Shown here: positions 53,501 to 63,824 of the stretch, one piece after another
Position numbering within the stretch: the stretch's first letter is position 1
How the letters are laid out: each line of letters starts with the position of its first letter
The notes under the pieces: generated by a model
What the model was told of the DNA's origin: nothing
The model's input: only the letters and a program-made list of their open reading frames with translations
Database searches by the model: none
DNA from: Balanoglossus misakiensis
Lineage: Eukaryota > Animalia > Hemichordata
Reading direction: 5' to 3'
Length of the DNA: 64,000 nt
NCBI GenBank assembly: GCA_040954595.2
Contig: CM082577.2
Location: 2,995,703 to 3,059,702, forward strand
Program-made: the position numbers and the translations under genes

Positions 53501-56500
53501 CTTAAGAAACTTTCACAAGTATAGTGATCCTTTCAAATGAAAACAACACGAAAATAATTTCCATACACAAAATATCAACACATCAAAGACTTACCTGTTT
53601 GACATCTGTCTCCAGTCCAGCCAGGAACACAAATGCAGTTGTAGTATTGCTGAAAGTTTTCGCAAGTTCCACCGTTCTGACATGGTGTACTCAGACATGG
53701 GTTTATTCCTTTACAGTGTGAAAAAGGTGGAGAATAAAGTCAGGTGAATGTGACCTCTGAACTGCGAAAGCACTCTTCAACACCAAAGAAGGAAATAAAA
53801 TTGTTGCATTATAAGTTAACCTGTCTATTTTTCACTTTGGGTACTTACGTGTCTCACAGAATTCTCCTTGGAATTCGGAGGGGCAAGTACAGGTCATGTA
53901 GGTGCAGAAGTTATTACAGGTGCCACCATTACGACAGGGGTTGAGACTGCAGGCATCCACGGCTGGGTTTTTAGAGAATAAATACACGTTACAACAGCAT
54001 TTAGAACAAACACACATTTTAACCGTCATATTGGTTAATGTACCAATATGATAGTTGTTTTTAATATTCTTGAGATGGGAGTACATACATACATACAGAC
54101 AGACAGACATACAGACACTTACGATTTTCACAGTTCAGTCCACGATAACAGCTTGTACAGCGGCACTCATAGTAGGTCTGATAGTTAATGCAGGTGCCAC
54201 TGTTGCGACAAGGTGCTGACTGGCAAGCGTCCAACCCTGTAATGGTGATAATAACACTAAGTGCATTGATATCTCCAAAAACAACTTTATGCGACTTTTT
54301 AGTTTCGCGTTTTTTTTTGGCTCTTGCGAAGTTCGCGAAAATTTCCTGTTTTACAGCATTTACAGCCAATATGGCAGACAAGGCCAGTTCTGTGCATTTC
54401 ACTGTATTTTAAATAGTGTGACTTCATTTTCACCAAAGATAATCTCAAAGGAAGAGTACGTAATTTGAAGAAGGCCAACTTACGTGTTTCACAATTGACT
54501 CCCCTGTATCCAGCAGGACACTGACAGGTGTAGTAGGTACAGAAATCGTTGCAGCTGCCACCATTCAAACATGGGTTGACAGCACATGCACTCACATCTG
54601 CAAAAAGGGAGAAAAAAATCAAGTTTCAATTTCAGTCACTGAAAACATGTTGTAAAGTGTGGATGTGTTTTTTTGCCTAGAAAGTTCTGAAAAAGTAGGT
54701 TAAACAAGAATGAAACTGGTAAAATGTTCAAAGTAAATGGTGTTTTACAGACTGAGGGCCATATCTACACTTTTGAGAACCTTGACAAGTTACAAAAAAC
54801 TCCCCCCAAAACTTACCAATCTCGCACCGCTGTCCAGTATGGCAGCTATCACAAGTGCAGGTGAAGGTCAAAGCAGACGGACAACCATTCTGGCAGATGC
54901 CATCGTTTTCACAAGGAGAGCTTGAACATGGGTTGGATACTTTTCAGTTCACAAAATAAAAAAAAAAGACAGAAATTGCCTTTTAAGATTCAGGTCACAT
55001 ATTATAGGTACATACGAATACATTTTGATTAGGATATTCTTGGATTCTTGAAAAACTATGAATCACTCAACAGAAATTTATCAATGAAGTCCATTTTCAG
55101 TCACTGTGGTGATATTTTTCACTTTCATCAAATTGAATTTTTTCTGGTGCTTAAGTTCTTCAGGAGCAATTTTCCATAAACTGAATAATGACCTAAAGAG
55201 GCTGGTACATGTACAATGGATATAGCTGCTCATGGTGATACTCACAGACATTGCAGTTGTTCCCAGTCCAGCAAGTAGGACAAGTGCATGTGTAGGCTGA
55301 GCAGACCAGTGAGTCCTGTACACACTGACCACCATTCTGGCATGGGTTTCCAGTGCAGATACTTGTGGCTGTCGACGACAAACAGCAAGAATCAACTCAG
55401 AAAAACAACAACTAATGAAGCCTTAAATACCAGTACAGACTGATTGGCAAAACACTGAAGCAATGGAGTCAACACAGGCTGTGATGCCTTCCTCGTCTTT
55501 GCACCATCTGATAATCATGAGGTAGGCGTCAGGGACTATTTTTCAGTTAACCCTTTCTCCACCATGGTTTGGTCCAACTCCACTGTTTTCAATACAAATG
55601 CTGGACCTTAACACAGGTAACTGGGGGTGAAAGGGTTCAAACAGAGGGGAAATTTACTCACGGATGTCACAGTTGGATCCTGTCCAGCACCCGGCACATG
55701 TACAGGTGTAATAGTTGCAGAAATTCTGGCAGGCACCACCGTTCTCACATGGATTGTTGGTGCATGCATTTACCTCTGTTCAAATGAAAATAAAAGGTAG
55801 AAATCTTCAACTGATGCAAAAAGGATAATTCTATAGTGTGACATGAAAATGCAAATTAATATCCAAAATTTGTTACTATTTAAAATGTATTCAAAAGTCA
55901 CAAAAAAGGCCTCCTAACTCTTTGTGAACTTAATGGACAAATTATCACTTGTGATTTTCTTGAAAGTTATGGACAAGGAAAGTCCTCTATTATTGAAGGA
56001 ACATTTCTGACAAAGGAGAACAAAAATTGATTGAACACTGACCAATTTCACACGTCGGTCCAGTCCAACATGCGGAACACTGACATCTATAGTCTGTGCA
56101 AGAACCAGGTGTGAGGGGACTACAGAAAGCTCCATTCTTGCAAGGTGCCGACGCACAGACATTGATTGCTAAAATAAATGAGAGATATAAGTGAAGTAAA
56201 TTAGTTATGTTGCCATGGTTATTACTGATTTCTTGGTACTGGAAACACAGAAGAAATCCATCATCGTGAATAAGGTTTTAATACACAAAATTTATCTGAC
56301 AATAAGTTTGGGCAATAAGTAGAGTTGGATTTGATACCTCTGTGAAATCACTGTTTAATTTACAGAGCTGGGTAAAGTTTTATGTATTTATGGTGAATCA
56401 AACTGCAGCTTTAGGTCTAGGGTTGTTTATGTGCTGTACCCAATTTATCAATCAGTTTGCCCAACTTACCTTGTTCACAGTAAATGCCCGTGAAGCACCC

Positions 56501-62500: not shown

Positions 62501-63824
62501 TGGTGATACTATTGTAAAATTCCTAAAAGCAACTGAAAGTATAAAATTTCAAATCTTATCTTCAGAAGCATTTGGTTAGTACGCCAGTGTTTGACTGTAC
62601 ATACGTGTTTGGCAGACGCTGCCAGTCCAACACTGGCCACAGATACAGCTGTACTCTGTACAAGAACCGGACACGGCTTGACAGAATCCTCCGTTCTGAC
62701 ATGGACGGCTGGAACATGGATTCACAGCTGAAATAAACATAAGACAGGCCATGAAAAAAATTAGAATAGTCCGTGGCTGTCGGAAGCAATTGAGGTTACT
62801 GATTTTCATATGAGATTTATGTGATTTACTGATTATAGTAATAATGCAGTGATTTGGCATTGAATGTTGATTGTATCAAAATGTCCACTCTATAGGGAAT
62901 ATTTCACCATTTGTCTTACTTTGTATACAATTTGCTCCTGTGAAACAAGGCTGACACCTGCAAGTATATTCAGTGCAGGACGATGATGATGGTATACACT
63001 CTCCATTGTTTGCACACGGGTTGTTTGGTACGCATGGGTTGATCGCTGCAGATTGAGAGGAAAAAAGGAGAATAATGTATCAGGTTTGGTGCCTTTATCA
63101 TTTCAGATTTAGCAGTTAAAAAAACAAAAACATTTCAGTAAATTTTCCAAAATTGTTAATATGCAAATAAATTTGCTGAAAATGGTTAATTTTCTTGAGT
63201 AGCTTGCAGCTTAAGAAATCCATTTGGCCTGAAGTACTCGAGCATAAAAATCAATATTTATTTCTTATTTATGTTTTCACACGTTTTCATAATAAGAACA
63301 AAAATAGGCTGTAAGGGAAAAAATCTTGTTTGTCCTTACGGTCTGAGCACGAAATCCCGGAGAAGCAGCCAGCACACCGACACTGGTAGAAAGTACAGAT
63401 GCCAGGGAAAGTTGTACAAGTTGCACCATTTTGACACGGGCTACTGTCACATGGATTGACAGCTGTAAGAAAGATTAAAACAAAATTATATCACCACCTG
63501 AAAAGTGACATATGACCATCTGGCTGCCACTGTGAGCGACATGTTGTCAGCAAAAGAAATGGATCTTCGAGCACTGCACATTTGCTGCATTAAATAGGAA
63601 AGCTGGGTGTAGACCATAGAGTACACAGATAAGTAATGCCAAACTTTTCAGGCCTTCAACAACGGCAAACTGGTTTTATTCCACCGACATAGCTCACTTA
63701 CGTATAGTGCAGAACTCTCCTTGCCAACAGGTGGGACAGTTACACTGGACCTGTGTACAGGAGTCACCCACTGGCTGGCATAAACCACCATTCTCACACG
63801 GAGCGCTGGCACACGCATTGATGG
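44439..63824 (-). CDS. Gene C: giant EGF/CUB type I membrane protein (5' end outside window): 25 8-Cys EGF, 3 7-Cys EGF, 2 EGF, CUB, 22 EGF including 4 mini-EGF, TM, short tail
   Basis: 54 phase-1 GT-AG exons: 63702-63824, 63340-63462, 62920-63045, 62605-62727, 62323-62448, 61950-62072, 61636-61758, 61325-61447, 60945-61067, 60489-60617, 60025-60147, 59740-59862, 59327-59449, 58937-59059, 58435-58557, 58069-58200, 57734-57859, 57461-57583, 57157-57279, 56732-56854, 56470-56592, 56043-56168, 55662-55775, 55246-55368, 54817-54939, 54484-54597, 54123-54236, 53849-53962, 53595-53708, 53088-53201, 52463-52822 (CUB), 52136-52252, 51693-51803, 51371-51490, 51048-51161, 50719-50835, 50480-50560, 50240-50365, 50028-50111, 49744-49860, 49416-49535, 49072-49158, 48643-48759, 48392-48502, 48069-48188, 47614-47700, 47218-47337, 46920-47033, 46596-46715, 46156-46269, 45693-45806, 45453-45569, 44919-45032, 44439-44587. 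Confidence 0.9.
51581..51651. repeat. Compound trinucleotide microsatellite (CAT)n(CAC)n, intronic
   Basis: Perfect CAT run followed by a CAC run in the intron between exons 51693 and 51371. Confidence 0.95.
52463..52822 (-). CDS. Gene C CUB domain exon
   Basis: GCIANY...[18 protein letters not shown]...[13 protein letters not shown]...[17 protein letters not shown] in a 360-bp phase 1-1 exon. Confidence 0.93.
54817..63824 (-). CDS. Gene C array of 25 eight-cysteine EGF-like modules, mostly 123-bp exons
   Basis: Consensus [AVE]-[IV]-N-P-C-x3-P-C-x-N-G-G-x-C-x6-C*-x2-[YF]-x-C-x-C-x2-C*-[YFW]-T-G-x2-C, e.g. [41 protein letters not shown]. Confidence 0.92.
55547..55640. mobile_element. Tiny piggyBac-like MITE in a gene C intron
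   Basis: TTAA-ccctttctccacca ... tgggggtgaaaggg-TTcAA: a 12/14 terminal inverted match with CCC/GGG ends and a TTAA-like target site. Confidence 0.55.

What the first reader, a model, noticed from the sequence alone, without database searches (positions are those of the whole stretch)
53595..63824. Disulfide-stapled EGF rod: extra cysteines that appear to pair between neighbouring modules
Seen: 25 consecutive modules carry two extra Cys, 'a' at C4-5 in the major hairpin (shifted in exon 54817) and 'b' at C5+3, replacing the Gly before the aromatic. Where the array ends the pattern is 54817 a+b, 54484 a only ([14 protein letters not shown]), 54123 b only ([14 protein letters not shown]), 53849 a only ([14 protein letters not shown]), 53595 none. 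Every b is followed by an a in the next module, and every a with a visible predecessor follows a b. That leaves no orphan under inter-module pairing but three orphans under intra-module pairing. Known: in Notch/fibrillin EGF pairs the C5+4 aromatic packs on the next module's hairpin tip (Notch1 Tyr444 against Ile471/Gly472; Ile471 is C4-5). These modules lack the calcium consensus. Inference: a fourth, inter-domain disulfide replaces calcium as the stiffener, giving a covalently locked rod. I do not recognise this as a described EGF class, but could not search.
Basis: partly seen in the sequence, partly recalled or inferred. Interest (0 to 1): 0.92.

Follow-up and report, generated by a model that had tools for sequence, protein, structure and literature searches.

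The report
Disulfide-stapled EGF repeat chain
A giant animal gene encodes a run of 28 EGF repeats carrying extra cysteines, and in sea urchins, sea stars, acorn worms and a rotifer these cysteines always come as one in a repeat and its partner in the next, which likely staples neighbouring repeats together and would stiffen the chain without calcium.

Summary
25 consecutive one-exon EGF modules carry two extra cysteines (a, b), followed by a-only, b-only, a-only and none; 1 of the 127 other window modules parsed has an extra Cys. The window's own tail is weak evidence (2 of 12 orders would fit). Relatives make the case. In 457 fetched proteins, all 58 unique b sites followed by an EGF have an a in that next module. 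Eight isolated b-then-a pairs occur in a rotifer and one unnamed protein. A window module is predicted to fold as a Notch-type EGF (1.0 A from Notch1 EGF12). There, a and b map to Ile471 and Gly443, at the published packing contact between neighbouring modules. A b(i)-a(i+1) disulfide is therefore very likely (about 0.9) but was not observed. Stiffening and straightness are inferred, and 'replaces calcium' is a functional analogy. I found no description in ten literature searches; a key EGF classification paper was unreadable. Verdict: new variant of a known kind.

The parts
55246..63824 (-). 24 phase-1 exons, each one 8-Cys EGF module with a (C4-5) and b (C5+3). Exon high ends: 63824, 63462, 63045, 62727, 62448, 62072, 61758, 61447, 61067, 60617, 60147, 59862, 59449, 59059, 58557, 58200, 57859, 57583, 57279, 56854, 56592, 56168, 55775, 55368. 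The array probably continues beyond the window edge.
54817..54939 (-). EGF exon with a at C3+4 (C4-8) and b; His at the packing position; pyrimidine-poor acceptor
54484..54597 (-). EGF exon, a only (7 Cys); closes the long stapled run
54123..54236 (-). EGF exon, b only (7 Cys); opens a separate two-module staple
53849..53962 (-). EGF exon, a only (7 Cys); closes the two-module staple
53595..53708 (-). ordinary 6-Cys EGF exon without calcium consensus
53088..53201 (-). ordinary 6-Cys EGF exon with calcium consensus
52463..52822 (-). CUB domain exon, likely of the same gene
   Evidence: Pfam PF00431 E 3.6e-20
44919..52252 (-). 22 further exons: 18 ordinary 6-Cys EGF modules (many calcium-type) and four short 4-Cys EGF-like modules; no a or b
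44439..44587 (-). last exon: hydrophobic segment (likely transmembrane), basic stop-transfer tail and stop codon

Best explanation
The region encodes a run of 28 EGF modules with extra cysteines in which the cysteine just before the packing aromatic of each module likely forms a fourth disulfide with the cysteine at the hairpin tip of the next module, which would stiffen the chain without calcium. Shown: the cysteine pattern, its one-way b-then-a rule across several animal groups, the retained aromatic and six-residue linker, and the absence of the calcium consensus. Predicted: each module has the Notch-type EGF fold, which puts a and b at opposite ends of one module and next to each other across a junction. 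Inferred: the bond (about 0.9); that bond, linker and aromatic packing together fix each joint (about 0.8 given the bond); and that the array is the outer part of a type I membrane protein (stapled EGFs, two EGFs, CUB, 22 EGF-type exons, membrane anchor). It would act as a stiff spacer or matrix strut, about 85 nm long if straight at 3 nm per module.
For: Direction rule: of 61 real b sites in 457 proteins (66 pattern hits, 5 misreads dropped), 58 are followed by an EGF and all 58 have the extra Cys there, at C4-5 (48) or C4-4 (10). A stricter parser gave 47 of 47, against 31 four-Cys N-parts among 5468 pairs with no C5-C6 Cys. Triples (a_i, b_i, a_i+1): b without its own a is followed by a in 5 of 5; a without its own b is not followed by a in 23 of 24; patterns 010 and 110 never occur among 4486. 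Array ends: 10 of 10 proteins start b-only and 9 of 10 end a-only; the tenth ends in b with one lone Cys seven residues after C6. Eight isolated b-then-a pairs occur in Seison (6) and unnamed P0176 (2). Geometry: the AF2 model of window module 63824 (pLDDT 87) matches Notch1 EGF12 at rmsd 1.0 A over 40 columns, with a between the hairpin strands. PMC4826273 (passages) puts the aromatic four residues after C5 against the major hairpin turn of the next domain; PMC3415683 (passages and legend) names Tyr of EGF11 against Ile and Gly of EGF12. These are the b+1, C4-5 and C4-4 positions. The linker is 6 residues at all 28 window junctions, and F/Y/W follows b in 25 of 26 modules. Three modules of the P0218 model fit Notch EGF11-13 at rmsd 3.3-3.7 A. 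Calcium motif: 0 of 47 modules after a b, against 2435 of 5488 others.
Against: No S-S distance could be measured: the fold tool returns no coordinates. The arrays are not independent; they collapse to about four lineages plus Seison and P0176, so the counts are not p-values. Lone hairpin Cys without a preceding b do exist (23 of 4486 triples; this includes Crumbs pairs, and human Notch1 EGF25 has a non-canonical Cys963, PMC12979247). Two b modules in Lamellibrachia P0026 are followed by a SEA domain, not an EGF. The P0218 model has pTM 0.30 and fits five-module Notch EGF20-24 only at rmsd 14 A, so long-range shape is not fixed; its alignment was mostly ordinary EGF proteins, which biases it towards Notch-like packing. 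A calcium-free Notch pair can be bent by 80-90 degrees, and an inter-EGF disulfide in integrin beta3 sits in a flexible hinge (PMC12383024). Exon joining rests on splice signals only.
Confidence: 0.72

Rival explanations
1. The b(i)-a(i+1) bond exists but is a tether that resists unfolding, pulling or proteolysis; the joints stay bent or hinged and the chain is not a stiff rod.
For: Integrin beta3 C473-C503 links EGF1 to EGF2 at a flexible hinge. Calcium-free Notch EGF5-6 is bent. Most window modules have an 11-residue hairpin loop against 8 in Notch EGF12, which may change tilt. Model pTM is 0.30.
Against: The packing aromatic is kept after b in 25 of 26 window modules, and the linker length is fixed at six. 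Three modelled modules follow the near-linear Notch EGF11-13.
Confidence: 0.17
2. a and b bond between chains, one step out of register, cross-linking molecules into dimers or matrix fibres.
For: A one-step stagger would give the same b-then-a pattern. Several carriers are matrix-type proteins (hyalin-like).
Against: The two positions already meet within one chain in Notch. Isolated single pairs inside very long Seison proteins obey the rule, which is simplest within one chain.
Confidence: 0.06
3. a and b stay reduced and bridge a metal such as zinc at the module junction.
For: b forms a C-x-C-x-x-C cluster with C4 and C5, and the b-then-a rule needs only proximity.
Against: No other invariant metal ligand in the alignment. 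All six canonical Cys are kept, and paired extracellular thiols normally oxidise (general knowledge).
Confidence: 0.03
4. a and b pair within a module, or the eight Cys are rewired as in laminin LE or integrin I-EGF modules.
For: Most modules hold both (30 of 35 b modules), giving an even count of eight.
Against: Every array would then start and end with an unpaired Cys. The model is a canonical EGF in which the two sites face opposite neighbours. No laminin EGF match in Pfam for any of 24 modules.
Confidence: 0.02

Closest known systems
Notch-type tandem EGF pairs (Notch1 EGF11-13, PDB 2vj3)
   Same: Cys spacing, eight residues between C5 and C6, six-residue linker, aromatic at C5+4, and predicted fold (rmsd 1.0-1.7 A).
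   Different: No calcium consensus; Cys at the positions of Gly443 and Ile471/Gly472; usually a three-residue longer hairpin.
Echinoderm hyalin-like/HYR proteins and hemichordate EGF membrane proteins (P0013, P0079, P0130, P0175, P0215, P0230, P0231, P0196, P0210, P0218)
   Same: Same a and b positions and the same b-first, a-last arrays; they are the best matches for all 25 a+b window modules.
   Different: Runs of 4-8 modules against 26 or more here; different flanking domains (HYR, SRCR, FN3). Their database names do not mention the extra Cys.
Integrin beta I-EGF domains
   Same: Eight-Cys EGF variant; beta3 C473-C503 is described as a disulfide from EGF1 to EGF2 (PMC12383024, passages).
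   Different: Connectivity 1-5, 2-4, 3-6, 7-8, and one link at a flexible hinge. Here b is nested inside the C5-C6 loop, so no shift of boundaries makes the bond intramodular, and it repeats at every junction.
Protein C EGF1 of placental mammals
   Same: EGF with eight Cys and a fourth disulfide (PMC9669250, passages).
   Different: Both extra Cys lie in one insert within the domain.
Insect and crustacean Crumbs, last EGF pair
   Same: An extra Cys in the C5-C6 loop followed by an extra hairpin Cys in the next module, in 7 of 25 Crumbs-like proteins inspected; none of the other 18 shows the pair in its last two parsed modules.
   Different: The first Cys is at C5+5, the linker is five residues, and there is a single junction next to the membrane. 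My own observation; not found in print.
Laminin-type LE modules
   Same: Eight Cys, tandem rods.
   Different: All four bonds lie within the module (recalled); no PF00053 match here.

Membership tests
Notch-type (hEGF) EGF module | Six Cys in EGF spacing with eight residues between C5 and C6 | tested here: met
   PF00008 matched 22 of 24 modules at E up to 0.1
Notch-type (hEGF) EGF module | EGF fold with a major hairpin between C3 and C4 | tested here: met
   predicted model, rmsd 1.0 A to Notch1 EGF12
Notch-type (hEGF) EGF module | Disulfides 1-3, 2-4, 5-6 | not testable with these tools
   no coordinates or chemistry available
Calcium-binding EGF (cbEGF) | D/N/E-x-D/N-D/E before C1 plus D/N at C3+2 | tested here: not met
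   0 of 28 array modules; exon 53201 just downstream meets it; consensus as in PMC12979247
Calcium-binding EGF (cbEGF) | Packing aromatic at C5+4 of the preceding module | tested here: met
   F/Y/W in 25 of 26 b modules, His in one
Laminin-type LE module | Match to the LE profile (PF00053) | tested here: not met
   0 of 24 modules at E up to 0.1
Laminin-type LE module | All eight Cys paired within the module (recalled), so no 7-Cys end modules | tested here: not met
   arrays start b-only and end a-only
Integrin I-EGF | 1-5, 2-4, 3-6, 7-8 pattern, with only two Cys after the sixth | tested here: not met
   here the order is C1 C2 C3 a C4 C5 b C6, with b nested between C5 and C6 (pattern)
Protein C EGF1 type | Two extra Cys in one insert | tested here: not met
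   a and b lie in different loops
Fibropellin (EGF-CUB-EGFn-avidin; definition recalled) | CUB within an EGF array | tested here: met
Fibropellin (EGF-CUB-EGFn-avidin; definition recalled) | C-terminal avidin-like domain | tested here: not met
   the gene ends in a hydrophobic segment and a short basic tail
Hyalin-like HYR proteins | HYR domains beside the array | not testable with these tools
   in the HYR relatives the domains precede the array; that part of this gene is outside the window and no genome is held

The most novel reading that the evidence does not exclude
An undescribed EGF class: a chain-forming module whose fourth disulfide links each repeat to the next, giving a covalently locked, calcium-independent rod. 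It is expanded to 26 or more linked modules here, is old in echinoderms and hemichordates, and was reached again in rotifers and, with shifted geometry, in arthropod Crumbs. The Gly-to-Cys and Ile/Gly-to-Cys pair would be a natural recipe for locking chosen EGF joints.
Probability: 0.55. Interest if true: 0.75.

Novelty: new variant of a known kind. Interest (0 to 1): 0.6.

Why it matters
Tandem EGF arrays are stiffened by calcium plus aromatic packing, and the shape of calcium-free joints cannot be read from sequence (PMC4826273). A covalent staple would be a third, sequence-readable way to fix a joint, and it explains 'unpaired' cysteines in annotated proteins such as hyalin-like proteins and insect Crumbs. 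It also suggests an experiment on an open question: whether Notch works as a rod or needs flexible joints (PMC3415683 calls it 'a rod or a rope'). Copying the natural cysteine pair into chosen joints would lock them one at a time. The biological role of this gene remains unknown, which limits the score.

Tried and rejected
No whole genome is held, so the array's first module could not be read. No RNA holder was listed; this says nothing on expression or splicing. Complex prediction on two adjacent two-module pieces of P0218 gave no verdict (score 0.02, alignment not used) and is not used as evidence. The VIA-align look was filled by the FN3 domain and says nothing about the array. The ESM Atlas gave only generic EGF clusters under 0.9. 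Three look-ups of earlier findings returned nothing. PDB sequence searches gave Notch, Delta and coagulation EGFs as best matches; the alignments displayed showed no a/b pair, but only 2 and 5 were displayed (table only). The first parser over-called a by mis-anchoring and was replaced. Five b-pattern hits were C2-C3 loops and were dropped. I recalled Dumpy as a possible precedent for a covalent module-to-module link; passages of three papers describe DPY as a four-Cys module (two disulfides) and none mentions such a link, so I do not cite it. Literature: ten full-text searches showed no description of this pattern. Four id look-ups were not held, aimed at the 2005 EGF classification paper by Wouters and colleagues and the 2008 Notch EGF11-13 crystal paper (both recalled, not seen). 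No supplements were read; Figure S1 of PMC4826273 bears on the packing residues. P0215, P0231, P0230, P0122 and P0170 were not scanned against Pfam (one search did not complete).
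Full report
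Observation. The window holds about 155 EGF modules on the minus strand, in three inferred animal genes. From 63824 to 53595 each module is one exon with AG and GT ends in phase 1. Twenty-four consecutive exons have eight invariant cysteines: the six EGF cysteines, a at C4-5 and b at C5+3. Exon 54939-54817 has b and an a at C4-8, which is C3+4, the same anchor as in the short-loop modules. The tail reads a only, b only, a only, none. At all 28 junctions b(i) is present exactly when a(i+1) is. Outside the array, 0 of 127 parsed modules have b and 1 has a stray loop Cys. The modules share only 37% of non-Cys residues on average, so the two cysteines appear to be kept by selection. The tail order alone would arise in 2 of 12 arrangements, so the window cannot settle the pairing.

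Gene context. Downstream of the array come an ordinary EGF, a calcium-type EGF, a CUB exon (52822-52463), 18 ordinary and four short 4-Cys EGF exons, and a last exon with a hydrophobic segment and basic tail. Joining is inferred from splice signals. The array is thus likely the outer part of a type I membrane protein. No genome is held. Best matches for all 25 a+b modules are echinoderm and hemichordate proteins, which suggests that lineage (inference).

Relatives. Three homology searches and one representative search gave 457 proteins, most with ordinary EGF arrays. Ten carry the same arrays: Lytechinus pictus (P0013 and P0230, with identical array loops, probably one gene), L. variegatus, Amphiura (two), Holothuria, Asterias, Ptychodera (two) and Glandiceps (names). 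All ten begin with a b-only module. Nine end with an a-only module; P0196 ends in b followed by a single Cys seven residues on. Eight isolated b-then-a pairs, with a at C4-4, occur in two Seison proteins and unnamed P0176. Of 66 b-pattern hits, 5 were misreads, 58 are followed by an EGF that carries a, and 3 are not followed by an EGF. In the triple table, b without its own a is followed by a in 5 of 5, a without its own b is not followed by a in 23 of 24, and b is never followed by a plain module (0 of 35). By architecture these collapse to about four array lineages plus Seison and P0176, so the counts are not independent trials, but no lineage shows the reverse order. The rule is one-sided: 23 of 4486 triples have a hairpin Cys without a preceding b. 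In module 3 of P0210 and P0218 and in one P0196 module the C5-C6 loop is longer, yet b stays directly before the aromatic, so b is tied to the packing residue.

Geometry. AlphaFold2 on the window's first module with its 23 sisters gives pLDDT 87 and strands 14-17 and 25-28, with a (residue 22) in the turn; three of five models are confident. It matches Notch1 EGF12 at rmsd 1.0 A. In Notch the aromatic four residues after C5 packs on the major hairpin turn of the next domain (PMC4826273, passages), named as Tyr of EGF11 against Ile and Gly of EGF12 (PMC3415683, passages and legend). The PDB sequence places that Ile at C4-5, that Gly at C4-4 and a Gly at C5+3; with the T466S label these are Ile471, Gly472 and Gly443. 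So a and b occupy the contact between neighbours, and within one roughly 3 nm module they face opposite neighbours. A model of Glandiceps P0218 (40-row alignment, mostly ordinary EGF proteins) has confident modules. Three of them fit Notch EGF11-13 at rmsd 3.3-3.7 A, but five fit EGF20-24 only at 14 A and pTM is 0.30. No coordinates were returned, so the S-S distance was not measured.

Calcium. None of the 28 array modules meets the consensus. In relatives, 0 of 47 modules after a b have the N-terminal acidic motif, against 2435 of 5488 others (not independent). Unstapled calcium-free modules are common, however. In the second gene, 31 short-loop modules at 20.8-29.3 kb, most resembling the tail modules, have mostly Gly at the b site and never Cys at either site. 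The staple seems to have arisen in a calcium-free background; it likely does calcium's stiffening job without having displaced it.

Mechanism. Likely, each module folds with its three usual disulfides, the aromatic packs on the next hairpin, and b(i) bonds a(i+1), tying each joint twice (backbone and disulfide). Because every exon is phase 1 and internal modules carry both cysteines, duplicating or skipping an internal exon keeps all cysteines paired, which may explain the expansion (inference). I put the bond at about 0.9 and the stiffened chain at 0.72. A tether at a bent or hinged joint is the main rival (0.17), since integrin beta3 has an inter-EGF disulfide in a flexible hinge (PMC12383024, passages) and Notch EGF5-6 is bent.

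Comparison. It works like a Notch-type EGF rod and is a Notch-type EGF by spacing and predicted fold. It is not a cbEGF, laminin LE, integrin I-EGF or protein C-type module. Seven of 25 Crumbs-like proteins inspected, from insects and crustaceans where a name is known, show a similar pair (C5+5, then an extra Cys in the next hairpin loop) at the last junction.

Novelty. Ten full-text searches found no description, Pfam has no dedicated match, and earlier findings were blank. The library lacks most subscription papers, including the main EGF classification paper (recalled, not seen), so a prior mention cannot be excluded. I saw passages only of PMC4826273, PMC12979247, PMC3415683, PMC12383024, PMC9669250, PMC2930355, PMC10895422 and bioRxiv 2020.03.31.018325; passages and abstract of bioRxiv 2025.09.16.676614; and no supplements.

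Verdict. A real, recurrent structural variant of the EGF repeat with strong indirect support for an inter-module disulfide; rigidity and function are untested. New variant of a known kind; interest 0.6.

Noticed in passing
P0039, P0045, P0056, P0108, P0149, P0159, P0235 (last two EGF modules): Insect and crustacean Crumbs carry an extra Cys at C5+5 followed by an extra hairpin Cys in the membrane-proximal EGF; myriapod P0093, P0053, P0055 and the vertebrate Crumbs inspected lack both. Likely a second staple geometry.
   Followed up: partly
window 50560-50480, 50111-50028, 49158-49072, 47700-47614 (-): Four short exons encode 4-Cys EGF-like modules lacking the C1-C3 pair, interleaved with calcium-type EGFs.
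   Followed up: no
window 15740-37850 (-): Second gene: EGF, CUB (36722-37129), about 100 EGF modules including one multi-kilobase exon of tandem calcium-type EGFs (about 31.0-35.7 kb), a calcium-free 'YYT' block, then a hydrophobic segment and short basic tail.
   Followed up: partly
window 1-10752 (-): Third gene: Reeler domain split over two exons (10417-10752 and 5792-6058) followed by EGF exons that run off the window.
   Followed up: partly
window 36061-35966 (-): One calcium-type EGF with a lone Cys at C4-2 and no evident partner.
   Followed up: no
P0026 (Lamellibrachia) residues 997-1028 and 1372-1403: b-type EGF followed by a SEA domain and then a 7-Cys module; b may pair across or beside the SEA domain.
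   Followed up: no
P0040, P0058, P0171 and other SNED1 proteins, first EGF: A conserved extra Cys at C4-9 in the first EGF after the NIDO domain, possibly a NIDO-EGF link.
   Followed up: no
window 54939-54817 (-): The acceptor is pyrimidine-poor (4 of 12); skipping this exon would still leave b followed by a.
   Followed up: no
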